The translations under genes were made by a program, and so were the position numbers. A model generated the notes under the pieces. That model was given only the letters and a program-made list of their open reading frames with translations, ran no database searches and was not told the DNA's origin. A DNA stretch of 58,711 nt, from positions 1 to 58,711 of the IMG/VR virus record IMGVR_UViG_3300049033_000019; one strand, given 5' to 3'. Source of the stretch: a virus. Taxonomy: Duplodnaviria > Caudoviricetes. Numbering within the stretch: position 1 is the stretch's first letter; each line of letters begins with the position of its first letter. Of this stretch, positions 2,869 to 55,475 are shown in pieces.

Positions 2869-2942
2869 AAGAGGTGCGCTACAAGACTCGGGCCCGGTGA
2901 GTCGACTGCCATATCCTCACCGGGCCTTGAGATGGAGGGTTC

Positions 2943-3194
2943 ATGACGTATCGAGAAAAGATGATCCACAACCTGGACATGGCTGAAGCCATGACCAAAG
3001 AGATCGAAAAGATGGAAGCCGCTGTCCAGGTACACGCTGAGACAGAGCACATCATGCTGTACCAGATGGCGCATGCCCTTCAGGACAACCTGGTGTACAG
3101 AAACCGAGTCCAACGCAGGGATCTCTACCTGGGTCTGGCTCGGACATATGCGCTAGCCGAGCTGGCGATCTCCAGTCCTCGACTGTTCCCATGA
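2943..3194 (+). CDS. Hypothetical protein
   Basis: GGAGGG RBS, 83 aa. Confidence 0.6.
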   Translation: MTYREKMIHNLDMAEAMTKEIEKMEAAVQVHAETEHIMLYQMAHALQDNLVYRNRVQRRDLYLGLARTYALAELAISSPRLFP

Positions 3195-3490
3195 GCAAGC
3201 CGCTGGACCAGGAAACCTTTCAGCATGTTACCCAGGTCATCGATCGAGCCCGGCGTAACGGGGCCAACATCCCGACCAGGCTCAATGATGCCAAGTTGAT
3301 CTGGACCAAGCAGCGAGAACGCAATGCTCGGGTGGAAACCGTAGAACAGTTGATCATGGAGTTCCAGGTCTGGAAGCCGCACGAGTTCCTCAGGATCATC
3401 AACCGGGAACTGATCAACTGCACCCCGGCGGACATGCACCAGGCCATCTCTCTGTGGCTGGACAAGTACTTGACTCATCTACGCAGTTGA
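3191..3490 (+). CDS. Hypothetical protein immediately upstream of array A
   Basis: ATGA overlap, 99 aa. Confidence 0.6.
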   Translation: MSKPLDQETFQHVTQVIDRARRNGANIPTRLNDAKLIWTKQRERNARVETVEQLIMEFQVWKPHEFLRIINRELINCTPADMHQAISLWLDKYLTHLRS

Positions 3491-3686
3491 CTCATCGATA
3501 CACGTCGCCACAAACCTTTCCCTTCCCTCTGACACATCACGTCCAACCGGGTCGACCCCGACCCACCCGACTACTCAGGCTGTGACGTATCACCTCATTC
3601 CCACTCCCATCGACTACTCAGATCTCCTCTCGATGCCCCAGCTCCTTCCTATTCGACAGACCATGCCCGTCCCCTCCCAATCCACT
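3488..3686 (+). repeat. Pentamer-register array A (5 units: YGAC-NNN + [NCNNN]n), candidate guide/ncRNA array
   Basis: Anchors at 3488, 3530, 3568, 3611, 3654 (spacing 42, 38, 43, 43); e.g. TGAC TCA TCGAT ACACG TCGCC ACAAA CCTTT CCCTT CCCTC. Confidence 0.85.
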
Positions 3687-3701
3687 TAAAAAGGAACCAG
3701 A

Positions 3702-4433
3702 ATGACTGAAGGTGTGTTCGCCACCTGGCGAACCAAGTCGTACCCGTTCACCTTCCACGGGGAGCTGCTCGTTGGCACCCTGGTCGGTGGCGTCCCCTCT
3801 GACCCTAATGTGGCTAAGGGCTGGATCGAGTCCAAGGTCAAGGACTCCAACCAGCAACGGATCCAAGACCTGATCACCCAGACCATGGTCGAACGTGACG
3901 TTACCCAAACTGAAGCTGTAGAGATCGTCAACAACCTGAAGAACCTCAATGGGTTCAAACGAGACCCTGAGCAGGGTCTGTTCATCGAGGGTCGTCAACT
4001 GAAGGCGGCTCTCAAGGAGGCCGTGTCGGTGGCCGTGGCCGCCGGCAAGTTGGAGATGACCAAGTGGGGCAGTACCCGGAAGTGGCTGACCAACTACTTC
4101 CCGGAGCATGTCTTCGTCATGGAGGAGCGCCTGTACCTCGGTGTCATGGAACCGGCTGGGATCTTCCAGCAGTTCGTCCACACTCACAAGGGTTCCAGCG
4201 TCCAGTACCAGGAGTACGTGGAGAAGGTGACCGTCAAGTTCACCGTGCTCACCGACCATGACTTCAAGGATCGAGACTGGGCCATGATCTGGACCACTGG
4301 TGAGATGAACGGTCTGGGGGCCAGCCGATCCCAGGGCTACGGCACCTACCAGGTCACCAAGTGGGAGAAGGTCGTCGACGCAAAAGCGTTGGCGGAGTTG
4401 AAGAAGAAGACCGAAAAAGAGGAGGCCAAGTGA
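3702..4433 (+). CDS. Solo Cas7/RAMP-superfamily-like protein
   Basis: RAMP-like GLFIEGRQLKAALKEA (cf. P.IPGSSLKGALR) and C-terminal glycine-rich loop GLGASRSQGYG followed by a beta strand; 243 aa; AAAGGA RBS. Confidence 0.8.
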   Translation: MTEGVFATWRTKSYPFTFHGELLVGTLVGGVPSDPNVAKGWIESKVKDSNQQRIQDLITQTMVERDVTQTEAVEIVNNLKNLNGFKRDPEQGLFIEGRQLKAALKEAVSVAVAAGKLEMTKWGSTRKWLTNYFPEHVFVMEERLYLGVMEPAGIFQQFVHTHKGSSVQYQEYVEKVTVKFTVLTDHDFKDRDWAMIWTTGEMNGLGASRSQGYGTYQVTKWEKVVDAKALAELKKKTEKEEAK

Positions 4434-4852
4434 ATCGGTCCGTTCGACAGGCTTTGATCTTCATTGCCTTGTTCGTGGCCGTAGTCGCAACTACGCAAAC
4501 TGCCATGCAACGCCCGGCAGATGCCCATCACGTCAACGGACAGTACTGGGACTGGTGCAACACGGCGTACCGGGTCTGTATCTCTTCGGATGCCAACGGT
4601 TACGGCGGCCAGGTGAAGCTCGGCCCGGCGCAGGGCTACTGCCTGAGCCTGCCATGGAACGACAAGTTGACCGGGATCGACAACTTCCACATGGGTACCA
4701 GTTTCCATGTCTGGCAGGACGGCAACTGCAATGGTGCACGACGCGATTACGGAACAACTTTCGTCGGTAACGTGGATGGCCAATTCAATGACCGAGGTAC
4801 GTCCTACTGCATCGGTCCGTTAACGGCCTCATTCTGTGGGCCCTACGTCTGA
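4430..4852 (+). CDS. Secreted peptidase-inhibitor I36 / beta-gamma-crystallin-like protein
   Basis: Signal peptide ending PADA; C...VCISSDANGYG...WNDKLTGIDN...VWQDGNCNG...FNDRGTS; GTGA overlap with the RAMP gene. Confidence 0.65.
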   Translation: MNRSVRQALIFIALFVAVVATTQTAMQRPADAHHVNGQYWDWCNTAYRVCISSDANGYGGQVKLGPAQGYCLSLPWNDKLTGIDNFHMGTSFHVWQDGNCNGARRDYGTTFVGNVDGQFNDRGTSYCIGPLTASFCGPYV

Positions 4853-4864
4853 GAGGAGAAAACC

Positions 4865-5236
4865 GTGCGCAAGCTCAGATCGGCAGCGGTGGCGCTGCTC
4901 GTCGTGCTCGGCTTCACGGTGGCGGTCGCGTCGCCGGCCCACGCCGCGTGGGAGGGCTGCAGCTATGAGATGGTCTGTACCTATTGGAACGGGGGGGGCG
5001 GGCTCCCGGTGTACTACTACACCGGTCCGACTAACGGCACCTGCATCGACATCGGCGAGCCATGGGACAACGACATCTCCTCGGTCTGGAACAGGTTCTT
5101 GAACCACCGGATTTTGCTGTTCCCGCACGAGAACTGCTGGAACTCCGCTCTGGCCGCCTATATCGATCCCCAAGACAGGGGCAATCTGGGCTACTGGAAC
5201 GATACGCCCAGCTCGATGCTGATCCAGCATGTCTGA
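4865..5236 (+). CDS. Secreted peptidase-inhibitor I36 / beta-gamma-crystallin-like protein
   Basis: Signal peptide ending SPAHA; C.YEMVCTYWN...WDNDISSVWN...FPHENC...WNDTPSS. Confidence 0.75.
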   Translation: MRKLRSAAVALLVVLGFTVAVASPAHAAWEGCSYEMVCTYWNGGGGLPVYYYTGPTNGTCIDIGEPWDNDISSVWNRFLNHRILLFPHENCWNSALAAYIDPQDRGNLGYWNDTPSSMLIQHV

Positions 5237-10225: not shown

Positions 10226-10590
10226 AGTTCTGGTGGGCAACCGGATATCTCTGTGGCCTGCTCACGAGCTACCTGAAGTGGGGCCTGCCAGTTCATGTGG
10301 CGCTGCTCCGGGACCGTAAGGCTCGTAAGATCAGAGCTGAGATCGACCGCATCGAAGGTGGCTTCACGACACGTCTCTACACTCCACTTACCCCCCCTCC
10401 CCCCTCATTTCGGGAAAGGGTTACTGATCGCTTCCTTCAATGGTGTGAGGATTGGCGAAACCTGCCTCAACCCCTGACGCCAGAACTAGTTGCGGAGATT
10501 GCTTATTGGAACAGAGTAGAGGAACTTAATGGCAAACAACAGGACGAAGCAAGGCTTTCCTATTCCCACGGGAAGCATAGCCTGGTGTGA
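10222..10590 (+). CDS. Hypothetical membrane-anchored protein
   Basis: ATGA overlap; hydrophobic N-terminus. Confidence 0.45.
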   Translation: MKFWWATGYLCGLLTSYLKWGLPVHVALLRDRKARKIRAEIDRIEGGFTTRLYTPLTPPPPSFRERVTDRFLQWCEDWRNLPQPLTPELVAEIAYWNRVEELNGKQQDEARLSYSHGKHSLV

Positions 10591-10801
10591 GGAGCATCAG
10601 AAGTTGCTGTACTTCACCAGGAAGGAGGCTCGTCGGGCCGCCCGTCGACACCCGGAACACAAGACTCCGTATCGGTGTAGCGTACTGACTGGCCTCTGGC
10701 ACGTTGGTGCCCTTCACCCGCTTGTTATCGCGGGAGAAAAGACCAAGGATCAGATTCGAAACAGGCCAGAGGAACGGCGACTAGCTGGACTAAAAGACTA
10801 G
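10529..10801 (+). CDS. Small zinc-finger-like phage protein
   Basis: C...K..Y.TRKEA...YRC....WHVG motif. Confidence 0.65.
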   Translation: MANNRTKQGFPIPTGSIAWCEEHQKLLYFTRKEARRAARRHPEHKTPYRCSVLTGLWHVGALHPLVIAGEKTKDQIRNRPEERRLAGLKD

Positions 10802-10808
10802 CCAGTAA

Positions 10809-10901
10809 CGACATCTCTCCTCTCGTCAACGCTCATCGCCTCACATCCAGCCGACACTCCCAGCCACATCACCTTCGATACCCATCAACCCTCTCGACCA
10901 G
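10809..10901 (+). repeat. Pentamer-register array F (2 full units plus terminal anchor)
   Basis: CGAC at 10809, 10852, 10895 (spacing 43, 43); CGAC ATC TCTCC TCTCG TCAAC GCTCA TCGCC TCACA TCCAG (7/7). Confidence 0.75.
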
Positions 10902-11066: not shown

Positions 11067-11138
11067 AGCGGGATAGTGGAGTAGTACCACGCCGGGCTCA
11101 TAATCCGGAGGTCCCCGGTGCGAATCCGGGTCCCGCCA
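11067..11138 (+). tRNA. tRNA-Met(CAT), initiator-like
   Basis: Cloverleaf: acceptor AGCGGGA/TCCCGCC with a 1:72 mismatch, anticodon arm CCGGG-CTCATAA-TCCGG, T-arm CCCGG-TGCGAAT-CCGGG. Confidence 0.85.
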
Positions 11139-23735: not shown

Positions 23736-24727
23736 GACGTGAAGAACGTGTTGCCACGGAAGTCGGCCAGATTCATGGTCACCGTATAGTCCCCTGCCGT
23801 GATCTGAACTGGATACTGGAAAGTGGTGCCCCGCAGTATCACGGGAGTTGCACCGATGACGTAGCTCTGTCCACCGGTGACCGAAGCGCCTACTCGCTTA
23901 GCGCCTTCGGCCACACGGGTCTCGGCACAGTAGAAGATCTCCATAGCCAAGTAGCTCATGAACGAGTCATCCAAGCTGGACACGCTGCACCTGACCCGCA
24001 GGCGGGGGGTAGGTCCAGTGGTGCTGAACCGCTCCAGAGTCAGGTAGCGCCAAGCATGCAGCTCATTGGCTTCTTCACCCAGGGTTGTCGCTGTACTCCA
24101 CAGTGGTGTCACCTCACCGGCTGGGATGAGGAACTCTCCGCCGCCCACTTCACCGATATCGAAGCTGCCGAGCGTGATACCTGGACCCTGCGGGGTGGCG
24201 TCCATGGTCCAGGAGAAGGACTTTTGAGGAGCGTCCACAATGCCTACCAGGTTCACCCGCAGGATGCGTTTGTCACTGAGCAGTCCCGCGTAACCGGTGG
24301 TATTGAAGTTGACCGTCAATGTCCCGAAGCCGTTACCAAAGTCGATATACCCGCTGTTGGCTGAGTTGTTGGCCAGGGCTCCCTGTACCGTGCTCTGGCC
24401 CTGGATCGTTGCGGTACCGCTCACGGAGCCAGACATCACCGGGATCAGGGCGCGGCCAATGGGTCCGGTGAGATCCTCTGTGTAGGTGGGATATACCGAG
24501 ACCTGGAAGACCAGAGTCCCGGACGCACCTAGTCCTGGCGTGGAGGCCAGGGCAATGTCAATCGGGTCTGGGCTGGTGTACCAGCGGGCATGGGTCAGGT
24601 TATGAGTGTTGATGGTGGCGAACGTGTACCCGAACTCTTGGAACACATCCGGAGTGAAGAACTCATTCTTGATGGGCGCCCACTCTTGGCCCAAGATGTA
24701 CGGCGTATGCGGGTTGTAGTCGCCCAT
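23732..24727 (-). CDS. Minor tail protein
   Basis: Directly follows the tape measure gene. Confidence 0.7.
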   Translation of the reverse strand: MGDYNPHTPYILGQEWAPIKNEFFTPDVFQEFGYTFATINTHNLTHARWYTSPDPIDIALASTPGLGASGTLVFQVSVYPTYTEDLTGPIGRALIPVMSGSVSGTATIQGQSTVQGALANNSANSGYIDFGNGFGTLTVNFNTTGYAGLLSDKRILRVNLVGIVDAPQKSFSWTMDATPQGPGITLGSFDIGEVGGGEFLIPAGEVTPLWSTATTLGEEANELHAWRYLTLERFSTTGPTPRLRVRCSVSSLDDSFMSYLAMEIFYCAETRVAEGAKRVGASVTGGQSYVIGATPVILRGTTFQYPVQITAGDYTVTMNLADFRGNTFFTS

Positions 24728-26802
24728 CAGAGTGTCCTCACCGCTAGCCGGGTGTTCCGCGCCGCGATCATGTTGGCGGCGGCCTGACCCATGGCACTGC
24801 CGGCCATCCGTGCCTGATTCTGGTCCGGCACGCCACCTGCCACATTCACCTGTACTGCGTTGGGACCGAAGACGATGTTGCTTGCTGCATTCATAGTCAC
24901 CTGGCGCAGCTCCGGAATCTCAGACCGGATGCCTTCGATGAGGTCCTCAATCATGCGCTGACCGCGAACTTTGGTCCAGCCTCGTCCTGACAGGGGACCC
25001 TCTTTGGCGGGAGATGCTCCGAAGAATCCGCCGATTCTTCCTGCGATTCCACCAATGAGGTTGAACAGTTCACCGATCTTCTGTCGGATGCCGTTGATGA
25101 GGCCCTGGATTAGGGCTCGACCTGAATTGACAAGCAGACTGCCGAACTTACTGAACGAGGCAACAATCCGCTTCGGGAAGTTCAGGATCTCTACCAGCGT
25201 TTTGGCAATCCAGTAAATGACACCCTTGACGAAACTGATGAAGCTGGCCCGCATATTGGCACCGAGTCGGTTGACCGAAACGAAGAAGCCTCCGATCGCC
25301 GAGATGATCCTGGTAATCCATACACCCAGGAACGTAGACATGTCGACCAATGCCCGACCGAGCGTCTTTATGTCAGCGATGATTGCCGGAATGGCTGTGT
25401 CCTTGAGCCATTCCGCCAGGTATTGGAAGGCGGCCAGCACCAAGGCAACCACTTCGATCAGACCGGTGAAGGTTCTGATACCGATGATGCCTAGATTGAT
25501 CAAGCCCTCCATGGCTTTGGCGCCGACCGGAGAGGCGAAGAAGAAGCTCAATTGCGTGATGGCTTCGGACAGAACCCTGATCAATTCGGCACCGCCGGCC
25601 TGGTCCAACTGTCGCATGAAGACGAACAGGAAGTCGCCCACGTTGAACAGGAGGTCAAAGACCATTTGCAGGGTGGCGGCCATCCGGTCCAACCATGTCT
25701 GCGTAGCTGGGTTGCTGGCCAAGTTGAAGATCAACCCAGACAGGGTGCCCAGGTTCCGAAGAATGATTTCCCCGAACTTGGTCATGAACGGCATCAGAGC
25801 TGTGGCCATCTCCAACAAGGCAACGATGAAGCCACGTCGGCCAAACAATGATGTAGACAAGCCCCTAATCCACTTCGTAGTGGCAGGGACTAGGGTGTTG
25901 AAGAACCTTACAAACACGGGACTGGCGAACAGTTCAATGAAGGCCCTGGTGAACTCACCAGCGGCACCTGCGACCTTTTGAAAGCCTAAGACCAGGCTGG
26001 GTCCCAGAGCCTTTCTGACATTGGTGATGGCTCCGGCCAGACGCAGGAAGAAGGCTTCCTGAGTCTTGGTACCTATCTCCTTGAACAAGTCCCGGAGTGG
26101 GAGCAGCTCCTTGACGAAGCTCCGAGCCGATCGAGTCAGAGGCTTCAGGGCTTCTCGTAATTCTTTAGCGTTCTTGGCCGCAAATGCCTTTTGGACCGCT
26201 GTCCCTAGCCCCTGGAACGCGATCGCCACGACCCCAACCTGAAGGCCGATAGAGGCCAATAGACCGGGGACGATGAACAGGACAGCGATCAGTGCATTGA
26301 CAGCCTGAACCGCTGCCAAGATGACGCCCACTAAGGCGGCCAGGGCTGGGATGAGGATAGCGATCAGGGGCGACCGACCGGAGACATTGAAACCGGCACC
26401 GATGGCATCAGCGATACCCGAGCCAAACCTGCTGAGAACCCCGCCCCTCCTGGTGGACTTATCCAGTGCGTCGCCGATCTCCTTAGAGATCGTCTCCCCT
26501 ACGTCCCGGCGGAAGCTGCGCCGGATAGAGTCTCGGATCCGGTCGAACCGGATGATGCTACGGACGCGGACGATGGTGTTCTTAGTACCATCCTCGATGG
26601 ACTTGGCGAACTTCTTACCTCGACGCTTCAGCTCCTTGCCGATACCATCGCCCATCTTGCCGCCGACTTTTTGGCCGGTCTTATCGAACTCACCCTCAGC
26701 AAGATCAGCAGCCTTGTCGAGGTCGTTGGGTAGCTCGCGATGGAAGGGGCTGGTGTCAGCGTGAACTTCGATGAAGGCTTTGCCAATAGAGGGCTCAGCC
26801 AT
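24727..26802 (-). CDS. Tape measure protein
   Basis: IGKAFIEVHADT N-terminus, helical Ala/Leu/Gly-rich body, SPAKEGPLSG motif. Confidence 0.9.
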   Translation of the reverse strand: MAEPSIGKAFIEVHADTSPFHRELPNDLDKAADLAEGEFDKTGQKVGGKMGDGIGKELKRRGKKFAKSIEDGTKNTIVRVRSIIRFDRIRDSIRRSFRRDVGETISKEIGDALDKSTRRGGVLSRFGSGIADAIGAGFNVSGRSPLIAILIPALAALVGVILAAVQAVNALIAVLFIVPGLLASIGLQVGVVAIAFQGLGTAVQKAFAAKNAKELREALKPLTRSARSFVKELLPLRDLFKEIGTKTQEAFFLRLAGAITNVRKALGPSLVLGFQKVAGAAGEFTRAFIELFASPVFVRFFNTLVPATTKWIRGLSTSLFGRRGFIVALLEMATALMPFMTKFGEIILRNLGTLSGLIFNLASNPATQTWLDRMAATLQMVFDLLFNVGDFLFVFMRQLDQAGGAELIRVLSEAITQLSFFFASPVGAKAMEGLINLGIIGIRTFTGLIEVVALVLAAFQYLAEWLKDTAIPAIIADIKTLGRALVDMSTFLGVWITRIISAIGGFFVSVNRLGANMRASFISFVKGVIYWIAKTLVEILNFPKRIVASFSKFGSLLVNSGRALIQGLINGIRQKIGELFNLIGGIAGRIGGFFGASPAKEGPLSGRGWTKVRGQRMIEDLIEGIRSEIPELRQVTMNAASNIVFGPNAVQVNVAGGVPDQNQARMAGSAMGQAAANMIAARNTRLAVRTL

Positions 26803-32576: not shown

Positions 32577-34334
32577 CTAGCAGGTCACGTCTCGCTGGAG
32601 ACCGGTCTTACCGTTCGGGCAAATGGTGATCGTGTAGACACGCGATAGCGGACACATTCGCACCATCGCCCAACCCGTCTCCGTGAAGAGATGGGTGACC
32701 TGGTTGGTGGCCAGCTTCGTGCTGTCGTACACCGAGTTCAGGGTGATGACATCCGAAACCGCCCGGACCCAGGTACCGGCCGGGTAGACGATGAACGACA
32801 GCTCTGTCGGCAAAGCCGACAGAGCTGTGTCCGAGCCCGGGGAGCCGGAGGCGGCACAGGTGGCGAAAGCGTCCTGCCAGTCGTAGACGTACTGGGCCCG
32901 AGCCCCGCGACGAGCGAAGCCCTCCGAGATGGCCGAGTCGGCCAGCATGACCGAATCGCTCCAGCCACCGACGGCGTTGCGCCGTACCCAGTCCGCCCGC
33001 ATCTGGGCGAGGATCCAGTACGGCATGATGACTTCCAGCGTGGCCGACTGCTGAAGCCGCAGCCGGTACTTGATGTCCACGATGGCCATCTCGACCGCGC
33101 TCATGACCTGGCTGACCACGCTCAGGTCGGTGGCCCACGGGGCACCGGAGAGAGTGACAGCGGTCGAGTCGGCGATAACGTCGGCGATCTGCTCCCGGTT
33201 GACCTGGTGCGCGTGCGCGGCCAGAGCACCCCGGGTGAAGGTGGCGGTGTACTCCGGGTAGCCCCGGATCGCCAGGATGTTGCCAGTCAGGCACAGGCCC
33301 GTGACACCCAGTCGGGTGTCGACGAAGCTGGGGCAGGGGATCTCCAGACACGTCTTCGTCGTGCCGGAGGCGACCTGGGCTTCAGTCAGGTCGAAGAAGC
33401 CGGTCGGGCTGGAGCAGGAGCCGCCACCGAAGATCGAATCGAACTCGATGCCGGTGTTGTGCCGGATGCCGCCCCGGCGAGCTTGGACCTCGGGGAAGTC
33501 GGCCAGGCCGTCCGTGCTGATCTGGAGGCAGATGCTGTAGTCGGTCTCCGATGGGGCACACCAGCCCTGGGCGGCGACCAGAGAGTCGCGCTCCGGAGCG
33601 ATGGTGGCCAGCTCCTTCTGCCGGGCTTCGACCGCCCGGAGTAGGGAGCCGCCGGGCAGCCGGCGCTCGTTACCGATCTCCAGCAGCTTGGCGTAGTCGG
33701 TCTCATCGCCGTTGACCGAAAATTCGGTCGGGTAGTCCCGGACCAACTGGGCTACCGGGTAGGTCTGTACCGTGCCCTGGCTGCCACTGGGGCGGCGCAT
33801 GGCACCGTGGGCGAAGGAGCGGGCCTCGAACGCCTTGGCGATGTCCAGCATGCTGTCCAGGTGCTGGCCAGCCTCATAGTTAGGCACGCCGGCAGCAGCC
33901 ACGAGGGTGCTGTAGACGGGACGAGAGTCCTTCACTGGCATCTGCGGCGGTGGGGCCTTGTCCACGATGTCGCTGAGCTTGACATCGATGACGGCCTCGG
34001 AGCCGGAGCTGAAGGTTTGGGCCGGAGCTGGAGCTGGCGGGGGCGGTGGAGTAACGGGGTCGTCGCCTCCGTCGTCGCCGTCATCTGGCTCGTCCGGCTG
34101 GGTCTGGAGGGCCGAGAACCGGGTGCCTCGGTCCTGGCGCCGCTTCATTTCATCGGGAACGGAAACCCGGTAGAAGGTCTGAAGCTCCTCCAGGTCATCG
34201 AGCTGTTCATCGGTGACACTGTCACGGGAGACGGAAGCAAACAGAGCGTTGTACTCGACCTCTGCCTGCTTGGCTAGGTCAGCAAGGCCACTGGCACTGA
34301 ACTGACCAAGATCCTCAGGGATCTGGAAATCCAT
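32577..34334 (-). CDS. Major capsid protein (with N-terminal scaffold-like extension)
   Basis: LVAAQGWCAPSETDY, PEVQARRGG, CP.F.D.RL, YPAGTWV, DS..L.TN motifs. Confidence 0.9.
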   Translation of the reverse strand: MDFQIPEDLGQFSASGLADLAKQAEVEYNALFASVSRDSVTDEQLDDLEELQTFYRVSVPDEMKRRQDRGTRFSALQTQPDEPDDGDDGGDDPVTPPPPPAPAPAQTFSSGSEAVIDVKLSDIVDKAPPPQMPVKDSRPVYSTLVAAAGVPNYEAGQHLDSMLDIAKAFEARSFAHGAMRRPSGSQGTVQTYPVAQLVRDYPTEFSVNGDETDYAKLLEIGNERRLPGGSLLRAVEARQKELATIAPERDSLVAAQGWCAPSETDYSICLQISTDGLADFPEVQARRGGIRHNTGIEFDSIFGGGSCSSPTGFFDLTEAQVASGTTKTCLEIPCPSFVDTRLGVTGLCLTGNILAIRGYPEYTATFTRGALAAHAHQVNREQIADVIADSTAVTLSGAPWATDLSVVSQVMSAVEMAIVDIKYRLRLQQSATLEVIMPYWILAQMRADWVRRNAVGGWSDSVMLADSAISEGFARRGARAQYVYDWQDAFATCAASGSPGSDTALSALPTELSFIVYPAGTWVRAVSDVITLNSVYDSTKLATNQVTHLFTETGWAMVRMCPLSRVYTITICPNGKTGLQRDVTC

Positions 34335-34800: not shown

Positions 34801-37800
34801 CTATGTCCTAGCTGGCTCACGCATGATGCGGTCCAGTGCGTCCATGGCCTTCCGGATCGCTCGGTCGATCTCCAGCTTCCCTTCCATGCTCTCGTGGCGG
34901 TGGTTATACAGTTTTGTCCGTAGCGATTCCATGAGCCGCATAGCCTTTACCCGTTCATTGCTAAACGGACGCTTCATGGCCTCAGTCATCAGCTCCTGAA
35001 GCGCGTCCATCTCATTGAACGTGCCACCACTGTCGTTGGGTCGACGGCTGGTGCCTCGAGCCAATGGGATCTTGCTCAGATCTTCCATAAGCTGCCGGAT
35101 CGGAGCCGGGGTCTCTTCGGGCAGGCTTAATGGAGCCTTGGCCGGGGCGTCCAGTTCTGACACCATCCTGTCAATCTTGCGTCGAGCGCTGGAATCAGCC
35201 GGCAGCCGCTGACCAAGTGCCCGTAGTTGATCAATCAACTGCTCCTGGCTGATCTGTCCTCGTGCTGCCCGGGTGGCTAAACGACCAACGACGTTGGCCA
35301 GAGCATCTCCGTCTACTTCAAGTTTTTGGTCATCACCCATGGTGCGCAGAGTGGTACCGATGATGCCGTCAGCATGGAACCCGATCTCACCCTGTCCGAA
35401 GTCGCCCCATGTGTTTTCAATGATCGGCTTATCGGACATACGAGGGGCCGCAGCTTCTGTGGCCTTGGCTGACTGGACCACCTTCAGCGCTGGCCGTGTT
35501 GCCTTAGACGGTCCCCCACCAGCGCCACCGCCCTCAATGACCTTGAGCCGGGCAGCTCGCTGAGCCTGGGTCGTGGCCGGAGCCTCCGGAGCGCTGGGGG
35601 TGGCCTTCTTGGCCGGGGTCGATTTCTTGTCCTCCTGCTGTATCAGGGAGGCCACCCGACGCAGGTACTCGGCGTTGGACTTGCGGATGGACCGGAGGCT
35701 GTCCCGGTCATGTTCGACCTTGAACCGGCGACCCTCCTCACTCAGGTCAGCCTTGGCTACCTGAGCGGCCCGCTCCCGTAGCTCCCGAGCCACATCTGCG
35801 GACGAATCACCGGACCGGAGGCGGCGATCAGCGCGATCCACAGCCGACTGAACGTCACTGAAGTACTCACCCGGTTCAGGGATGTCAGCGTTCCGGGCTC
35901 GACGAGCCAGCGGGAGCTTATCGGCGGCGCGCCCCAGGCCACCCTCACCCGAGGCCGACGGTAGCTCCGGCTTGATCCGGTCCAGGATCTTGTTCCGTAG
36001 GTCCTGCTTGCTACGGCCCTTGAGCCCACCGAGCTGCTCCCCGACCCGGCGAAGCTCAGGCATCGTCAACCCGTCCAGGGCGGATTCACCCTGCTCCCTG
36101 CTCCGGGCCTTGCTTAGTTGGTCCAGGCGCTCGTTAATGAGCCGGGCTTCAGCGCTGTCAGCTCGGGTTTCGGCAGCCTTGACCTCGGGGGTGGCAGCCT
36201 TCTTCGCGGGCCGGCGCCGAGTCTTCTTCAGCCGCTCGGCCAGCTCCCGGATCTTGGTGACCTCAGCCTTGACCCGGTCATACTCGGCAGCATTCGCGGC
36301 CTTGCGCTCCCCCCTTTCCTCCGGGGTGAGGAGAGAGCTTTCGCTGTGCCAATTGCCCACCTCATAAACGGCTGTGGTCATGCGACTAGTGGCGCGGTCG
36401 TCTAGCTCAGATCCGATCTTGGCGGGGGACACCTTCCCCTCATCCATGTCCTTCTGTGCCTCGTCCAGGGTGCGCTTGACCCACGGATCATTCTCATCGA
36501 AATCGATCCCAGCCCCGATGGTCCGGACATCCAACTTCTCCCGGTCGGTGGGGATAGTGGGGGCAGCCTTCTTCGCGGCCTTAGCGGCTTTCTTGGCCGG
36601 GGCCTTCTTCGGGATCAGGCCACGCTCCCGGGCAACCTTCCCGGCCACCTGGCGGACCAGGTCCTGGAGCATCTCCTCCTTAGTCTCACCCTTCGGCGGG
36701 TCCAAGCCCTGCATCCGGGCAGCTTCACGGAGATCGTCCGGGGTGGCCTTCTGGAGCGCTTCGAAGCCTTCCGCATCCAGGTTGACCCGTACCTCAGCGA
36801 TGGTCGGCTTTTCGTCGCTGAGGTACATCCGCATGAACTTCGACGCCTTCTTCTGCGCGTCGATAGCACTCTGGAGCTTGGCTGCATCAGATTGGAGCCT
36901 GGTCCGCTGCTCCGGACTGAGGTCAGGCTGGCGCAGGTTGGCGTCGACCTCGTTCAGGTCCTCCTGGTTGAAGCTGATCTCACCTTCGATGCGGCGGACA
37001 CCCTCCTCAGGGGTGATCTTCCCGCTGGCTACGTCGTCTCGGATCTCTTTCAGGCTCCGGCCGGCAGCACCGTCAGCATCCAAGTCAGCTGCATCCCAGG
37101 CATCACCGAACTCACGCTTACGGGGTTCGTTACTGACGGGGGTCTGCGTACGGTCCCCCTTCACCGATCCCTCAGGGACCACCCGGGCACCACGTTCGGA
37201 CCGTTCGGCACCAGCCGCCTCCTTGGGGCTGGCTACTTCGACCGTGGCCCGGTCGAGCTGAATGTCCTCGTCACGCCACCTGGTGCTGCTGCCTGGACGG
37301 ACGATGTGAACCATCGTCCCTTCGGGGATGTCCCCAGCGATGCCCTTGTGCAGGCGCCGATTGAATGGCACCACGTCCCCGGCCTTGCCCTGGAGGGACA
37401 CATCATCGGCTGCAGTAATCCGGTCGACGAAGGAGCGTGCTCCATCCACATCCCCACGGCCGAGCATCTCGACGATAGCGTCAGCCCACTTAGCGTCGGA
37501 ACCTTCGGTGCCGAGACGGGCCCTGACCCTGGCACTGATCGCTTCAGCCGACGCTTCGTTAGCAACCAGCTCATCGAACTCTGCTGCCAGCCGTCCGTAC
37601 TTACGGCCACGATCAATCTTGGCCTGACGGTTACGGGCTACCTCAACGGAGTCCTCTGGAGCCAAGGGGACGGCCTCAGGGCGAGCTTCCGTGAAGCCAC
37701 GAGTAGCAATGGAGTCACGGCGACTGCCTACCGTCGCCTCAACAATCTCCCGTTGCAGTTCTGGCTTCGTCAGAGTGGTACGGCGCGGGATCTCCAGCTC

Positions 37801-40470
37801 CTTGGCCATCTCCTGGAGCTGAGCCTTGTTGAAGTCACTGACCATCTCCTGAGCTTGTTCACGGCTCGGAGGGTTCTCTTGGCCACTGAGCCTGGCCAGG
37901 GTTTCGGATGGAGTGAGCTTCCGTGCCTCGGCTGAAGCCTCAAGTTCTGGGGCCTGTCCGCCACGGCGAACGTTCATCTTGCCGTTCGGGTTGACCGAGT
38001 CGATCAGCTTCCCGTCGGCGTCGTAGAACTGATACCGCCTCGTGGGGGATCGCTCGATGCGTGCAACCTCACGACCGGAGGCTCCCGGCTTTACTCGGGA
38101 TAATGGACGACTCCCGTCCCGACCGAGAAGGATGGTGTCTCCAACCTGGACAGTTTGCGGACCAATCCGCTCCAGGCGCCCAGGTGCAGCCTCGGGTACG
38201 GCGGCCTTGGCTGCCTTCTTGGCTGGGGCCGGAGCCTCAGGTGCCTGTGCCGCTGCCTCTTCCCGACCTCGAATCGCTGCCTTGATCTTGTCCTTTGTCC
38301 AGCCACCTCGTGCCGTTACACCACGGCGACCGGCCTCAGCGATCAACTCCTGCTTCGTCATCCGGTCCAGGTCATCACCCGGAGCCTCCGGTGCAGCCTT
38401 CTTGGCCGTCTTTTTGCCGGGAGGACCAGCTTTCCGCACCCGCTGTACTGCCTCTTCTACCGCACGCCGGTCTCCTTCCGGCATGTCGGCCAGGATCTGG
38501 TCCCGCACCTCTGGGTTCATCCGGTCCAGGAGGTGAGTGGCAACCCGGTCCTCTGTACTGACCCTTTTTGCCGCCTTCTTCGGAGCCTCTACCGGCACCT
38601 CCCCCCGCTGCCGGCCACGACTGGGCCGGGCACCGAGGATGGCCAGAATCATCTCAGAGCGTGGCTCCTTGGGTCCGAAGCCGAGGTTGTTGCGTTCCCC
38701 CATCTCCCGTAGCTGAGCATTGGTTGGCCGCTTACCGTTGAACAGGCCCTTTATCTCCTGCTCAGGGGTTAGTTCAGCAGGAGGAACCACCGGCGCTGCC
38801 ATCTTCGCCGGAGCCTTCTTGGCCACCGGAGCAGGCGCCTTCGGTGCCTCACCACGTCGCCGTGCCAAGATCTCATCGGCCGTCCCGACAATCCGCTGTT
38901 CCTCTTCGTTACGCTCGTTACCCCGGAACTGCTGGGCCCGAGCAATGACGCGGTTCTCCTGGTCCCGGCTCATGCCAGACTTCTTGGCCGGCGCCTTCAC
39001 TGGTGTCGGAGTCGGAGCCGCCTCTGGAGCCGTTGCCTTCCCGGCCTTGGCTGCCTTCTTGCGCTCGTCCAGCTCCTGCATCTGAGACTTGGCAACCTTT
39101 GGCAGCCCAGCCTCAGTGCGTGGTACCGCCTTACCCGGCGCCTGCTTCGTCTCAGGCTGCTCCAGTCCGTACTCTCGCTTGATCACATCCGAGAGCTGGC
39201 GCAGGTCCTCAGCATCCGGATCCCCAGCGGCGTCTAGATCTGCCGCATCCCGGTCCAACTCCCGGACCGCGTCAATCGGATCTTTCCGTCCGGAGACGAC
39301 GCCTTCGTAAGCCTCGTTGAACCGCCTCCGGTTGGGGCCGGCGGCCGGAGACGGAACACCTGCATCACGGACAGCGCGGCGCAGGTCCACAGAGCGAGTC
39401 GTTGCTGTCGGAGCCTCCGGGGCGCCGGGGGCCGCCGGTTGGCCACCGGGACCTGTCGCCGGACGCGGCTCCCCGCCGATGGACGGGGCATGGATTGGCT
39501 CGGTGCGAGGTTGGACGCCAGCCTGTTGCTGTAGCTGTTCAACGCGCCGCCGTTCTGCTTCCTGCATCGGGGACGGGGTGACTGGGGTTTTGGCCGCCTC
39601 AGCCGCAGCCTCGGCTCGGGCCTGCTCATCAGCAGCCTCCTGCTCATCATCTGGCCGCTTCTCGAACTTCCCCAGTCGTTGGCCCGTTTCGCGGATGCTG
39701 GCTTCCCGCTCCTTCGACGGGCGCCGTCCTTCACCGATGGGTCCAGCGATCGGTTCTGGCGTCTTGTGTCGGCCGGACGAGTCGGCCGTGACGAACATGG
39801 TCCAGCCACCGACACCATCAGGCTCCACTTTGGTCACCCGAAGTGGCTGGTCCCGATCAAGGAAGATGGTGGAGTCTTCCGGACCAGCGGCCGGAACGAC
39901 GACCTTGGTGCCCTTCTTGGCAGCGATGACCATCCGGACACTGCCAGCCGGCTGCGTCCCTTCCACGCCACCGATGGTGGTGAGGCTGTAGCCCCGGTCG
40001 GCGATGAGCTTTCCGGCCATCTCCCGGATCCCAGGGTCGGCATCTGAGCTGGTGCCGGCTGCGGTCTGTGGGGTGTACCCGAAGGAATCCACACCCACGA
40101 CCCGGGTGAGGATTACATCGTCTGGCAACTCGGTGGCCGACCGGTCCATCATCTGCACGAACCGTTGTGTCGACGGCTCGTCTATGACCCCGTCGCGGAG
40201 GTCGGCGTTGGTGGCACCCAGGTCGCTACGGAGGCGGAGGTGGTCAGCTCGACCCATCCGGCCCCGACCCTGACGGGAAGCAATGTTCGTCAGGTACTGA
40301 TTGGACTGTCGCTTGTTCTGGAACATGCGGGGCCGGAAGCTGGCCAAGAAGTCCAAGACTCCCTGGATGAGGCTCTTGGCCATTCCGGCCTTACGGATCC
40401 AGCGACCATCAGGGCCACGAGGGTGGAGTAACTCCTCCTTCGTGCCCCACGAGTCGCCGATCCCGGGCAT
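34801..40470 (-). CDS. Large polyvalent (probably packaged/ejected) protein with ART-like, Rho-N/SAP-like and GrpE-like segments
   Basis: 1889 aa; HPRGPDGRW N-motif; LTRVVG...DRGYSLTT; several short helix-loop-helix repeats; AKKA linkers. Confidence 0.75.
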   Translation of the reverse strand: MPGIGDSWGTKEELLHPRGPDGRWIRKAGMAKSLIQGVLDFLASFRPRMFQNKRQSNQYLTNIASRQGRGRMGRADHLRLRSDLGATNADLRDGVIDEPSTQRFVQMMDRSATELPDDVILTRVVGVDSFGYTPQTAAGTSSDADPGIREMAGKLIADRGYSLTTIGGVEGTQPAGSVRMVIAAKKGTKVVVPAAGPEDSTIFLDRDQPLRVTKVEPDGVGGWTMFVTADSSGRHKTPEPIAGPIGEGRRPSKEREASIRETGQRLGKFEKRPDDEQEAADEQARAEAAAEAAKTPVTPSPMQEAERRRVEQLQQQAGVQPRTEPIHAPSIGGEPRPATGPGGQPAAPGAPEAPTATTRSVDLRRAVRDAGVPSPAAGPNRRRFNEAYEGVVSGRKDPIDAVRELDRDAADLDAAGDPDAEDLRQLSDVIKREYGLEQPETKQAPGKAVPRTEAGLPKVAKSQMQELDERKKAAKAGKATAPEAAPTPTPVKAPAKKSGMSRDQENRVIARAQQFRGNERNEEEQRIVGTADEILARRRGEAPKAPAPVAKKAPAKMAAPVVPPAELTPEQEIKGLFNGKRPTNAQLREMGERNNLGFGPKEPRSEMILAILGARPSRGRQRGEVPVEAPKKAAKRVSTEDRVATHLLDRMNPEVRDQILADMPEGDRRAVEEAVQRVRKAGPPGKKTAKKAAPEAPGDDLDRMTKQELIAEAGRRGVTARGGWTKDKIKAAIRGREEAAAQAPEAPAPAKKAAKAAVPEAAPGRLERIGPQTVQVGDTILLGRDGSRPLSRVKPGASGREVARIERSPTRRYQFYDADGKLIDSVNPNGKMNVRRGGQAPELEASAEARKLTPSETLARLSGQENPPSREQAQEMVSDFNKAQLQEMAKELEIPRRTTLTKPELQREIVEATVGSRRDSIATRGFTEARPEAVPLAPEDSVEVARNRQAKIDRGRKYGRLAAEFDELVANEASAEAISARVRARLGTEGSDAKWADAIVEMLGRGDVDGARSFVDRITAADDVSLQGKAGDVVPFNRRLHKGIAGDIPEGTMVHIVRPGSSTRWRDEDIQLDRATVEVASPKEAAGAERSERGARVVPEGSVKGDRTQTPVSNEPRKREFGDAWDAADLDADGAAGRSLKEIRDDVASGKITPEEGVRRIEGEISFNQEDLNEVDANLRQPDLSPEQRTRLQSDAAKLQSAIDAQKKASKFMRMYLSDEKPTIAEVRVNLDAEGFEALQKATPDDLREAARMQGLDPPKGETKEEMLQDLVRQVAGKVARERGLIPKKAPAKKAAKAAKKAAPTIPTDREKLDVRTIGAGIDFDENDPWVKRTLDEAQKDMDEGKVSPAKIGSELDDRATSRMTTAVYEVGNWHSESSLLTPEERGERKAANAAEYDRVKAEVTKIRELAERLKKTRRRPAKKAATPEVKAAETRADSAEARLINERLDQLSKARSREQGESALDGLTMPELRRVGEQLGGLKGRSKQDLRNKILDRIKPELPSASGEGGLGRAADKLPLARRARNADIPEPGEYFSDVQSAVDRADRRLRSGDSSADVARELRERAAQVAKADLSEEGRRFKVEHDRDSLRSIRKSNAEYLRRVASLIQQEDKKSTPAKKATPSAPEAPATTQAQRAARLKVIEGGGAGGGPSKATRPALKVVQSAKATEAAAPRMSDKPIIENTWGDFGQGEIGFHADGIIGTTLRTMGDDQKLEVDGDALANVVGRLATRAARGQISQEQLIDQLRALGQRLPADSSARRKIDRMVSELDAPAKAPLSLPEETPAPIRQLMEDLSKIPLARGTSRRPNDSGGTFNEMDALQELMTEAMKRPFSNERVKAMRLMESLRTKLYNHRHESMEGKLEIDRAIRKAMDALDRIMREPART

Positions 40471-43199: not shown

Positions 43200-43924
43200 C
43201 GCCCCCTCTCGTCCATGATCACCAGATCACAGCGACAGTTAATCACCGTCTCGGGTGGTCCCATTGGATCACCCGGGTACTGAATAGGGAAGCCATCCAC
43301 GTAGTACGGCATGAATAGCGCCTGCACCTGTCCGTCTACAGCTCGGTGGGAGGCGCGCACCCGCATGTCGTGCTCTGTGTCCCAGCGCTTCTGCAACACC
43401 CTTCCGGTAACTCGGGACTGCTCAAGTCCGGCGGCAAGGGTACCTGCGCCATAAGCCCGAGTAACTTCTGTCTGGGCGATAACCCGGGCTCGATTTGGCC
43501 ATCTTTCGGACCCGCTATATTCCAGTACTCTGTCCACTCTTTCTGCAACTCGTTCACTGTCGGACCCCTCGTTGACTGCATCGGTTATCTCGGCGAAGAC
43601 GAGGTTGTAAACCTCGTCAGGAATCCGAACCAGGAAGTTCTCGGTCTGGGCTAATTGACTCATCAGGAAGGCGTGCCTGGACACCGGTGGCACGTCCGTA
43701 GCCTCTGACCAGGCGCCCATGGCTATCTGACCGATGGTTGTCATGATCGTTTCGACTTCCTGATCCCAGGCGGCCTGAACTCGGAAAACTGCTGTCGCGT
43801 CTGGCTGCATGCGAAACCGGCGAAATGGCGCCATGACCACGGCCCGAGCTTGCTGAAGCCACCGGGACAACGCTCCACCCACCACACCCGCCAGGTGCCT
43901 TTCGTCTTGCTCACGACTTGGCAT
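43196..43924 (-). CDS. Phage Mu gpF-like minor head protein
   Basis: RARVIAQTE...KRW....D.RVR.SH...PGDP.GPPE.VINCRC. Confidence 0.9.
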   Translation of the reverse strand: MPSREQDERHLAGVVGGALSRWLQQARAVVMAPFRRFRMQPDATAVFRVQAAWDQEVETIMTTIGQIAMGAWSEATDVPPVSRHAFLMSQLAQTENFLVRIPDEVYNLVFAEITDAVNEGSDSERVAERVDRVLEYSGSERWPNRARVIAQTEVTRAYGAGTLAAGLEQSRVTGRVLQKRWDTEHDMRVRASHRAVDGQVQALFMPYYVDGFPIQYPGDPMGPPETVINCRCDLVIMDERGR

Positions 43925-46211: not shown

Positions 46212-46449
46212 AGACAGGTCTACCCGTCCCGTGTCGTCTCGACTTGTCTGGCCGAGCCCGATCCAAAACTGCCCCATCCGACTATCCCCTTCTGCGCGTC
46301 ACGACCCGAAACGACTGGTCAGTACGGACCACCCCTCTATCGTCGACTCATCTCGCCAGGACAGTTCAGAGCCGTTCGCCACTTTCCGTCTCGACTTGTC
46401 AGTTCCCCTCATTTCCTCTCCGCTTCATCTCCTATCTACATCAATCGAT
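46212..46449 (+). repeat. Pentamer-register array B (6 units)
   Basis: Anchors at 46212, 46240, 46279, 46312, 46344, 46392 (28, 39, 33, 32, 48); CGAC TCA TCTCG CCAGG ACAGT TCAGA GCCGT TCGCC ACTTT CCGTC (8/8). Confidence 0.85.
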
Positions 46450-55123: not shown

Positions 55124-55306
55124 ATGGCCACGGTACTGGTGTTCCGTTACGACTGCGGCTGGGAGCACAATGTGCGCCTTTTGCCGGGTCAGTCCAAGAC
55201 ACAAGTCATCAGTAGGCTGGGACCGGAGATACGGCGCAGGCACAAGCGGGCATGTGGAGTCTGTTTCAGAAAGAGATCACGACAGGTCGAGTCTCACCCC
55301 AACTGA
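55124..55306 (+). CDS. Small hypothetical protein
   Basis: 60 aa; its 3' end overlaps array E. Confidence 0.4.
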   Translation: MATVLVFRYDCGWEHNVRLLPGQSKTQVISRLGPEIRRRHKRACGVCFRKRSRQVESHPN

Positions 55307-55382
55307 TCTAATCAGGTCCATTCGACATGTCACGCCGTATCCCGACTAGTCAAGTCACCTCCACCCGTGGCGACTAACCAAG
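55280..55382 (+). repeat. Pentamer-register array E (2 full units plus terminal anchor)
   Basis: CGAC at 55280, 55323, 55371 (43, 48); 15/15 pentamers have C at position 2. Confidence 0.85.
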
Positions 55383-55389
55383 GGGACAA

Positions 55390-55428
55390 AAAAAGGCCCC
55401 GTACCTGATACAGGTACGGGGCCTTTTT
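55390..55428. terminator. Bidirectional intrinsic terminator
   Basis: AAAAAGGCCCCGTACCTG-ATA-CAGGTACGGGGCCTTTTT between convergent genes. Confidence 0.85.
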
Positions 55429-55475
55429 CCTGTCCACCCCTGGACACATTAACCACGTGAATGGCGGTAACTATG

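What the first reader, a model, noticed from the sequence alone, without database searches (positions are those of the whole stretch)
3488..4433. Solo Cas7/RAMP-like gene preceded by a non-CRISPR array with a 5-nt register: candidate new RNA-guided system
Seen: 3702-4433 has RAMP hallmarks (IEGRQLKAALKEA; C-terminal G-rich loop GLGASRSQGYG). The 200 bp upstream are five units of YGAC-NNN plus 5-7 pentamers with C almost always at position 2 and usually a pyrimidine at position 1, e.g. CGAC TAC TCAGA TCTCC TCTCG ATGCC CCAGC TCCTT CCTAT. The other three bases differ in every pentamer. No cas1/2/3/5/6/8/10 and no identical CRISPR repeats are present. Established: Cas7 polymerises along crRNA with a fixed nucleotide register per subunit. 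Inference: each unit is a small RNA coated by one RAMP subunit per pentamer, with conserved bases bound by protein and variable bases encoding a non-contiguous target. From memory (not verified here), phage 'VIPR' systems pair a solo RAMP with GGY/NN pentamer RNAs. The grammar here (GAC anchor plus NC-NNN) is different, so it would be a distinct variant. Alternative: a solo Cas7-like anti-CRISPR with decoy RNAs.
Basis: partly seen in the sequence, partly recalled or inferred. Interest (0 to 1): 0.97.

Follow-up and report, generated by a model that had tools for sequence, protein, structure and literature searches.

The report
Phage VIPR-type RAMP with pentamer array
A phage gene for a lone Cas7-like protein sits beside a short array of five-base repeats, matching the recently described VIPR RNA-guided silencing systems, so it is a real system but not a new kind.

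Summary
Gene 3702-4433 folds as a Cas7-type RAMP (pLDDT 90; Foldseek top hits type VII Cas7 and Csm3, E 2.5e-8). The 211-nt spacer upstream carries a 5-nt register.

Read on the minus strand, the spacer is GTC followed by 7-8 pentamers of G-R-N-N-N. There are units of 43, 43 and 38 nt, each followed by the next GTC.

Homologues show the same grammar. At least 2 units occur in 62 of 80 viral loci and 10 of 11 genome loci, against 1 and 0 after local shuffling. The relatives' consensus is GTC(GG-NNN)4-10.

The protein family aligns with the phage SUSP1 Vipr clade (hhalign 94.7%, E 6e-8). VIPR was published in 2026 preprints, so this is a member of a known kind from an actinomycete-phage clade.

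Unusual points:
- 63% of the pentamers start GA rather than GG.
- The guanine-contacting residues of SUSP1 Vipr are not kept.
- The array's G-rich strand is antisense to the gene in 65 of 70 oriented loci.
- Three further mini-arrays lie elsewhere in the genome.

The transcribed strand and the targets remain unresolved.

The parts
3702..4433 (+). vipr-like gene: solo Cas7-fold RAMP, 243 aa, with a G-rich loop at residues 204-214 and a long beta-hairpin (thumb-like) at 153-184
   Evidence: ORF. AF2 pLDDT 90.1. Foldseek top hits Cas7/Csm3. hhalign to the SUSP1 Vipr clade 94.7%. 568 cluster representatives at E <= 1e-3.
3500..3683 (-). Main array, read on the minus strand. Partial unit 3658-3683. 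Complete units 3615-3657 (43 nt), 3572-3614 (43 nt) and 3534-3571 (38 nt), each GTC + (GR-NNN)7-8. Degenerate tail 3500-3533. The transcribed strand is not established.
   Evidence: Parses. 3 detector units against 0.33 expected per strand in the whole window. 11-nt repeat 43 nt apart.
10813..10898 (-). Mini-array 2: two 43-nt units of the same grammar (GR in 5 of 8 and 7 of 8 pentamers). It lies in the spacer between ORF 10529-10801 and tRNA-Met at 11067.
46216..46282 (-). Mini-array 3: one irregular 39-nt unit and one 28-nt unit (5 of 5 GR). It lies between the large terminase gene and a 104-aa gene upstream of the portal gene.
55284..55374 (-). Mini-array 4: a 28-nt unit, a 20-nt irregular piece and a 43-nt unit (7 of 8 GR). 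It lies between two minus-strand genes.
55389..55432 (.). Hairpin with an A-run before it and a T-run after it, 13 nt from mini-array 4. It scores as a terminator on the minus strand. It lies upstream of the array on the G-rich strand and downstream of it on the C-rich strand.

Best explanation
This is a VIPR-type system of a tailed phage that probably infects actinomycetes.

Shown here:
- Gene 3702-4433 encodes a Vipr-like solo RAMP.
- The spacer upstream holds a short guide array.
- Three smaller copies of the same array type lie at 10.8, 46.2 and 55.3 kb.

Inferred by analogy with SUSP1 VIPR:
- The array is transcribed.
- RAMP protomers coat it one per pentamer.
- The fixed G-R, and partly the next base, is held by the protein.
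- The variable bases are presented to read a gapped DNA target in a competing phage or mobile element, which is then silenced.

My own inference: the 3-nt GTC breaks the 5-nt register and so delimits guides of 28-48 nt. It would act either as a filament stop or as an exposed cleavage point.

I favour the G-rich minus strand as the RNA, at about 60:40 over the C-rich sense strand.
For: Fold. The top PDB matches are Cas7-type RAMPs, E 2.5e-8, probability 1.00, on a pLDDT 90 model.

Homology.
- hhalign of the 77-sequence family profile against a 27-sequence SUSP1 Vipr clade profile gives 94.7%, E 6.3e-8, over 129 columns. The alignment runs from helix 1 to the G-loop.
- The same profile found nothing better than a Csm4 G-loop at E 0.38 among all PDB chain sequences.

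Arrays travel with the gene.
- At least 2 units occur in 62 of 80 IMG/VR loci and 10 of 11 genome loci. After local shuffling the figures are 1 of 80 and 0 of 11.
- Total units are 427 + 96, against 14 + 3 after shuffling.
- The 32%-identical Microcystis phage homologue also has such a tract.

Unit architecture.
- Start-to-start spacings peak at 28, 33, 38, 43 and 48 nt, i.e. 3 + 5n.
- Among 444 complete distinct units, n is 4-10.
- The first base is G (0.95-0.99, partly by selection). The second base is G in 75% and A in 18%. The third is G-biased (0.47). The last two are near-free.

Context.
- The window is a 58.7-kb virus record, 94% complete. It has terminase, portal, head, tape-measure and primase genes.
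- It has no cas genes and no CRISPR array.
- Relatives in genomes are mostly from actinomycetes.

Published mechanism.
Against: - No RNA evidence.
- The strand is unresolved. The C-rich strand is the sense strand of the RAMP gene in 56 + 9 loci, against 5 loci with the G-rich strand. The array abuts both flanking genes, leaving no room for a promoter. No sigma-70-like promoter was found on either side: 1 and 2 of 65 arrays.
- The SUSP1 residues that read the two guanines are not kept in the hhalign alignment: D177 to A207, W178 to S208, R138 to Q170. H17 lies outside the aligned region.
- HMMER with the family profile finds nothing in the SUSP1 genome. The single-sequence hhalign probability is only 31%.
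- The window's array is short and 63% GA rather than GG.
- Its nearest relatives keep the GTCGG anchors but have a poor pentamer register. The array could therefore be decaying.
- There is no vap-like gene. The roughly 175-aa gene conserved upstream of relatives' arrays is absent from the window.
- No invariant 3' tail was recognised.
Confidence: 0.75

Rival explanations
1. It is the same kind of system, but the guide is the C-rich sense strand. The array would be co-transcribed with the RAMP mRNA as (NNN-YC)n-GAC units. This clade of Vipr would then read pyrimidines instead of guanines.
For: - The C-rich strand is sense to the RAMP gene in 65 of 70 oriented loci.
- In 47 of 86 arrays both flanking genes share that strand. 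In 6 both share the G-rich strand (crude gene calls).
- The array abuts the upstream stop codon and the RAMP ribosome-binding site.
- No promoters were found.
- In SUSP1 the vrRNAs are on the vipr strand.
- The guanine-reading residues D177, W178 and R138 are replaced.
- Non-canonical fixed trinucleotides are already reported for divergent Vipr-like clusters.
- At 55.3 kb the hairpin lies at the 3' end of the C-rich reading.
Against: - All experimentally tested vrRNAs have GG.
- Two well-supported subclades (L026/L045/L049 and L048/L038/L047) have large arrays with the G-rich strand sense to the gene. Orientation relative to the gene is therefore not fixed.
- In the window, two of the four arrays have the G-rich strand co-directional with local genes.
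- The conservation gradient matches GGY only on the G strand.
- SUSP1's pyrimidine-pocket residue E71 aligns to the conserved R98. An arginine suits a guanine at the third position. This is inference.
Confidence: 0.3
2. The RAMP gene is functional, but the window's arrays are decaying relics. They would be few, short, GA-rich units that no longer guide anything.
For: - Only 3 good units lie next to the gene, against up to 41 units in relatives.
- GA makes up 63% of GR pentamers here, against 19% in relatives.
- The nearest relatives have a poor register.
- No target was found.
Against: - Five of the window's units keep exactly 43 nt between GTC marks at three separate sites. That argues for constraint.
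- A at the second position is also tolerated in relatives (18%).
- The protein keeps every family-invariant residue.
Confidence: 0.2
3. The repeats act as DNA, for example as iterons or operator sites for a DNA-binding protein or a replication or packaging function. Their association with the RAMP would then be incidental.
For: - No RNA data are available.
- The arrays keep one absolute orientation at four sites, regardless of local gene direction.
- GTCGG is the best-conserved element even where the pentamers decay.
Against: - Fixed 2-3 bases alternating with freely varying bases is the signature of guide arrays, not of iterons.
- The arrays co-occur with a RAMP homologous to Vipr across 72 of 91 loci.
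Confidence: 0.05
4. The protein is a Cas7 mimic that acts as an anti-CRISPR with decoy RNAs.
For: It is a phage-encoded solo Cas7-fold protein.
Against: - By sequence profile the protein is closer to Vipr than to any CRISPR RAMP in the PDB.
- The arrays have no CRISPR-repeat-like handles.
- The variable positions are diverse, which suits guides rather than decoys.
Confidence: 0.03

Closest known systems
VIPR type II (Escherichia phage SUSP1 Vipr + vrRNAs; bioRxiv 10.64898/2026.04.26.720920 and ...720927; Results and named methods sections read)
   Same: - Phage-encoded solo RAMP without cas genes.
- Profile-level homology.
- 5-nt repeats with a fixed G-containing core and variable bases.
- Arrays directly beside the gene.
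- Further guide units elsewhere, as SUSP1 has upstream and downstream vrRNAs.
   Different: - The protein has 243 aa, against 195.
- The core is G-R-(G-biased) rather than GGY.
- Units are 28-48 nt and delimited by GTC, not about 100-nt RNAs with a structured 3' tail.
- The guanine-contact residues are not conserved.
- The G-rich strand is antisense to the gene in most loci.
- The window has no vap1-like gene.
Other VIPR types and array forms named in the same preprint: 'staggered arrays', and NNNGG / YNNNG / NNNNG repeats
   Same: - The GG-NNN grammar equals NNNGG.
- Abutting units, where one ends as the next begins, resemble the legend of the paper's fig. S18.
   Different: - I could not see the figures or supplementary tables, so I cannot say whether this clade is one of the seven types.
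- The main text mentions neither GTC punctuation nor actinomycete hosts (searched).
Non-canonical VIPR-like arrays found with a genomic language model (bioRxiv 10.64898/2026.10.21.760802; passages and methods 4.22 read)
   Same: Period-5 arrays next to Vipr-like folds, with cores that depart from GGY.
   Different: - The cores reported there are GAC/NN, CAC/NN, WGT/NN and TGH/NN, with about 10 repeats.
- The passages I read mention neither GR-NNN nor GTC punctuation.
CRISPR class 1 backbone subunits (type VII Cas7, Csm3, Cmr4)
   Same: Best structural matches. RRM core, G-rich loop and thumb-like hairpin.
   Different: - Only 8-14% identity.
- No CRISPR repeats and no partner cas genes.
- The register is 5 nt rather than 6 nt.

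Membership tests
VIPR | Solo RAMP protein with RRM core, G-rich loop and thumb | tested here: met
   AF2 pLDDT 90.1. Foldseek top hits are Cas7-type RAMPs at E 2.5e-8. G-loop at residues 204-214. Weak Csm4, Cas6_C and RAMPs motif hits.
VIPR | Homology to an experimentally characterised Vipr (SUSP1) | tested here: met
   Profile-profile hhalign gives 94.7%, E 6.3e-8, over 129 columns. The weaker tests fail: single sequence 31%, and HMMER on the SUSP1 genome gives no hit.
VIPR | Minimal locus in a virus or provirus, without cas genes or a CRISPR array | tested here: met
   Virus record, 94% complete. Phage structural genes. 0 of 61 ORFs hit Cas models. No CRISPR-like repeats.
VIPR | Adjacent tandem pentamers with fixed and variable positions | tested here: met
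   Window units, significant against shuffles. Present in 72 of 91 homologue loci.
VIPR | Canonical GGY/NN core | tested here: not met
   The third position is G-biased (0.47), not pyrimidine. The second position is A in 63% of the window's GR pentamers. The array fits only the 'related consensus' NNNGG.
VIPR | Guanine-reading residues of SUSP1 Vipr (H17, R138, D177, W178) | tested here: not met
   The hhalign columns give Q170, A207 and S208. H17 is not aligned. R179 aligns to the invariant R209. Alignment in the thumb may be imprecise.
VIPR | Array transcribed into small RNAs that co-purify with the protein | not testable with these tools
VIPR | Invariant structured 3' tail after the repeat tract (type II) | tested here: inconclusive
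   None was seen by eye in the window. A short motif recurs after some arrays in L026 and L045, but I did not test it systematically.
VIPR | Accessory vap gene (typical, not universal) | tested here: not met
   Neighbouring ORFs have no Pfam hit at E <= 0.01, apart from one sub-threshold SirA hit on 2943-3191. The downstream ORF looks like a secreted protein. The 175-aa gene conserved in relatives is absent. There is no similarity to SUSP1 vap1.
VIPR | Variable bases match DNA targets under a gapped (1-nt skip) rule | tested here: inconclusive
   Exact NNx patterns from four window units gave 3, 7, 83 and 10 IMG/VR hits. Backward controls gave 7 and 25. There is no excess and no convergence.
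CRISPR-Cas class 1 | CRISPR repeat-spacer array and partner cas genes (cas5, cas6, large subunit, cas1/2) | tested here: not met

The most novel reading that the evidence does not exclude
This large actinomycete-phage clade may be a VIPR branch with switched base readout.
- The guide would be the C-rich sense strand, (NNN-YC)n closed by GAC. It would be cut or partitioned out of the RAMP operon transcript itself.
- It would be read by a G-loop carrying A-S where SUSP1 has D-W.
- Solo guide units would be scattered through the phage genome.

Even if the G-rich strand is the RNA, two features may be undescribed: 3-nt punctuation that sets guide length through a register shift, and guides antisense to their own effector gene.
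Probability: 0.3. Interest if true: 0.75.

Novelty: new member of a known kind. Interest (0 to 1): 0.45.

Why it matters
VIPR is a newly described way of reading DNA with RNA: gapped pairing from 5-nt repeats. It has been proposed as older than CRISPR.

This window shows three things:
- A large clade in actinomycete phages and prophages carries the system. The clade has 568 cluster representatives at 50% identity.
- The clade uses a different punctuation (GTC every 28-48 nt), different RNA-contact residues, and mostly inverted arrays.
- One phage can hold several dispersed mini-arrays.

If the strand or the base specificity differs from the E. coli model, the clade would widen the known code. 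It would also widen the design space for small programmable DNA binders. If not, it is a further natural example and useful for comparison.

Tried and rejected
Sequence-only annotation of the protein gave nothing useful:
- Pfam: 0 families.
- PHROGs: only E 0.12.
- PDB phmmer: only BetP at E 0.64.
- PADLOC: a weak REase_III hit, E 2.9e-4, which I discount.

Other negative results:
- Megablast of 20 kb against phage records found no match.
- Rfam at gathering score found only three tRNAs and no hammerhead.
- Whole-spacer Fourier power at period 5 was modest, because the register resets at each GTC.
- A fixed-register 100-nt scan of relatives underperformed for the same reason.

Tests of the transcribed strand all failed to decide:
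- Consensus promoter and terminator scans of three window regions and of L012 found one terminator at 55.4 kb and nothing else above shuffles.
- My own terminator scan of 76 arrays gave 3 upstream on the G strand, 0 downstream on the G strand, and 1 each on the C strand.
- My own promoter scan gave 1 and 2 of 65 arrays.
- A stop-codon depletion test on the variable triplets was negative: 45 observed against 48 expected, and 40 against 49.

Target search:
- 440 units against 1.18 Mb of held loci, under four 3-nt-spacing rules, gave no excess over shuffled guides.
- One 20-base pattern from an L006 unit had 0 IMG/VR hits.
- Window units gave hits, including a 16-of-16 match at the portal start codon of a 65% GC provirus. 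They also gave four matches in one giant-protein gene of 60% GC phages.
- Backward controls gave as many or more hits, and no other unit converged on the provirus. I therefore reject these as evidence.
- Skip positions falling at codon wobble positions are expected by chance in high-GC genes.

The tree is the quick tree. The careful search did not finish. It used 84 of 92 proteins; identical or shorter than 180 aa translations were dropped.

Supplementary tables and figures of the VIPR papers could not be seen. They may show whether this clade is already classified.
Full report
THE WINDOW. It is a complete-looking virus record of 58,711 bases, estimated 94% complete. It encodes a large terminase (46436-47893), portal (43911-45833), Mu-F-like head protein, major head protein (32577-34334), tape measure (24727-26802) and primase/helicase (50855-53434). 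It also has three tRNAs. No phage record in GenBank is close at the DNA level.

THE PROTEIN. ORF 3702-4433 (+) gives 243 aa.
- Pfam, PHROGs and a sequence search of the PDB give nothing useful.
- A full HMMER scan of 1.84 billion cluster representatives finds 568 relatives at E <= 1e-3 and 104 at E <= 1e-30.
- An alignment of 77 of them has invariant P32, E135 and R209, and a conserved G-x-G-A-S-R-S-Q-G-x-G loop.
- AlphaFold2 on that alignment gives pLDDT 90.1 and pTM 0.84.
- Foldseek against the PDB returns 121 matches at E <= 0.001. The best are all Cas7-type RAMPs: type VII Cas7, Csm3, Cmr-beta subunit and gRAMP domains. Best E is 2.5e-8, probability 1.00, TM 0.47-0.57, identity 8-14%.

THE ARRAY IN THE WINDOW. 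The spacer 3491-3701 is C-rich on the plus strand. Read on the minus strand it parses as follows:
- A partial unit at 3658-3683.
- GTC + 8 pentamers at 3615-3657.
- GTC + 8 pentamers at 3572-3614.
- GTC + 7 pentamers at 3534-3571.
- A degenerate tail.
- Each unit is followed by the next GTC.
- The pentamers start with G-purine in 7 of 8, 6 of 8 and 7 of 7 cases.

The two 43-nt units end in the same 11-mer.

My detector finds 3 units here and 7 on the minus strand of the window, plus 1 on the plus strand. In 200 locally shuffled windows the mean is 0.33 and the maximum 3 per strand. The generic measures are weak. Tandem Repeats Finder finds nothing. Period-5 power for C over the whole spacer is 0.71. 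A sliding chi-square puts the spacer in the top 0.1-0.5% of positions but not first.

FURTHER MINI-ARRAYS. The same sliding scan pointed to other sites. Three of them have the same grammar on the minus strand and lie in spacers without long ORFs:
- 10813-10898: two 43-nt units.
- 46216-46282: units of 39 and 28 nt.
- 55284-55374: pieces of 28, 20 and 43 nt.

Five of the window's units are exactly 43 nt. Over the nine units parsed, 33 pentamers start GA and 19 start GG.

RELATIVES.
- Eighty IMG/VR loci and eleven genome loci encoding homologues were fetched. The genome loci are mostly from actinomycetes: Streptomyces, Nocardiopsis, Streptosporangium, Streptacidiphilus and Pedococcus. One MAG each is labelled Burkholderiaceae and Caldilineaceae.
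- The detector finds 427 minus-strand and 96 plus-strand units in the 80 viral loci, against 14 and 3 after local shuffling.
- At least two units occur in 62 of 80 viral and 10 of 11 genome loci, against 1 and 0 after shuffling.
- In 43 of 71 and 8 of 10 loci with enough upstream sequence, at least 2 units lie within 600 nt upstream of the gene.
- Aligned on the anchor, GG recurs every 5 nt on both sides of GTC. Start-to-start spacings peak at 28, 33, 38, 43 and 48 nt, so a unit is GTC + (GG-NNN)n.
- Among 444 complete distinct units, n runs from 4 to 10. The second base is G in 2241, A in 525 and C or T in 224 pentamers. The third base is G in 47%. The last triplet before GTC tends to x-T-A.
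- The 32%-identical homologue in Microcystis phage Mae-JY09 is also followed by such a tract.
- A conserved gene of about 175 aa without Pfam match lies upstream of many relatives' arrays. The window lacks it.

COMPARISON WITH WHAT IS KNOWN.
- The VIPR preprint (Results and methods sections read) describes phage-encoded solo RAMPs (Vipr). Their vrRNAs are made of 9-16 YNNGG repeats and read dsDNA through the NN bases with a 1-nt skip. There are seven types, 'related' repeat forms (NNNGG, YNNNG, NNNNG) and 'staggered' arrays.
- I located the SUSP1 locus in KT454805 from its repeats. The residue numbers of the 195-aa protein match those named in the structure preprint.
- HMMER with the window's family profile finds nothing in SUSP1. 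hhalign to the single protein gives 31%.
- hhalign to a 27-sequence alignment of the SUSP1 clade gives 94.7%, E 6.3e-8, over 129 columns from helix 1 to the G-loop.
- In that alignment the guanine-contacting D177, W178 and R138 correspond to A207, S208 and Q170. The pyrimidine-pocket residues E71 and M72 correspond to R98 and Q99. R179 corresponds to the invariant R209.
- A later preprint (passages read) reports 99 period-5 clusters beside Vipr-like folds. Of these, 21 have non-canonical cores.
- A third preprint mentions solo vrRNAs (passages only).
- I found no text on GTC punctuation or on actinomycete hosts in the first preprint. Its figures and supplements were not available to me.

STRAND. 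This is the main open point.
- Relative to the RAMP gene, the G-rich strand is antisense in 56 viral and 9 genome loci, and sense in 5.
- With crude gene calls, both flanks share the C-rich strand in 47 of 86 arrays and the G-rich strand in 6. The other 33 are mixed, partly through miscalled antisense ORFs.
- The arrays abut both neighbours. Neither promoter nor terminator scans help.
- The five G-sense loci fall in two well-supported small clades nested among C-sense loci in a quick tree. There a terminator separates the RAMP gene from the array.
- In the window, two arrays lie in plus-strand gene blocks and two in minus-strand blocks, yet all have the G-rich strand on the minus strand.
- For the G strand speak the homology to a GG-reading family and the 5'-to-3' fall in conservation. 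Arg98 at the third-base pocket also fits, but that is inference.
- For the C strand speak the operon layout and the loss of the guanine-reading residues.
- I put it at about 60:40 for G.

TARGETS. None was established.
- A local search gave no excess over shuffled guides.
- Exact gapped patterns from four window units gave 3, 7, 83 and 10 IMG/VR hits. Two backward controls gave 7 and 25. High-GC hits were no more frequent per pattern than in the controls.
- The most attractive hit was 16 of 16 bases across the portal start codon of a 65% GC provirus. No other unit supports it.

THE WINDOW'S SUBCLADE. The nearest relatives (L002, L066, L007, L010; up to 65% identity) keep frequent GTCGG anchors upstream of the gene. 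Their register is poor and their spacings irregular. They also have few detector units. The window's own units are more regular than theirs.

VERDICT. It is not a new class. It belongs to a large actinomycete-phage clade, and its array punctuation, orientation and RNA-contact residues differ from the characterised type II system. Whether that clade is already among the published seven types could not be checked.

Noticed in passing
window 51517-51589 (-) and 50534 (+): Three GTC-anchored stretches (spacings 39 and 33 nt; one passes the detector) lie antisense inside the primase/helicase gene. One plus-strand unit lies at 50534. They may be chance or embedded units.
   Followed up: partly
window 3716-3733: A perfect 8-bp inverted repeat with a 2-nt loop lies within the first 32 nt of the RAMP ORF (I10). 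It could be an operator or an mRNA hairpin. Conservation was not examined.
   Followed up: no
window 3470-3496: A 10-nt direct repeat starting TTGACT occurs twice, 17 nt apart. It spans the stop of the upstream ORF, just before the array (D3).
   Followed up: no
window 4430-5236: Two consecutive small ORFs downstream of the RAMP gene begin with hydrophobic signal-like segments and are Cys-rich. They are probably secreted proteins. The first has no Pfam match; the second gave no hit in the pooled Pfam scan.
   Followed up: partly
L012 1609-2124 and equivalents in L004, L011, L015, L031, L059, L061, L063, L065, L073: A conserved gene of about 175 aa and unknown family lies directly upstream of the arrays in many relatives (alignment A3, mean column identity 51%). 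It is a candidate accessory gene of this clade and is absent from the window.
   Followed up: partly
window 34801-40470 (-): A giant 1,889-aa ORF lies in the structural block. It has only two weak PHROG hits.
   Followed up: no
window ~12-21 kb: A pooled Pfam scan of 61 ORFs gave hits to an NAD-dependent epimerase/dehydratase, glycosyltransferases and a methyltransferase. This sugar-modification set is unusual for a phage of this size. The scan does not say which ORFs matched, so the location is my guess.
   Followed up: no
L026 ~2940-3000, L045 ~1300-1450 and ~3830-3930: After the arrays of the G-sense subclade, a short motif (GTAGCCG..., then CAGTATAG) recurs. It may be a tail or a promoter element.
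   Followed up: no
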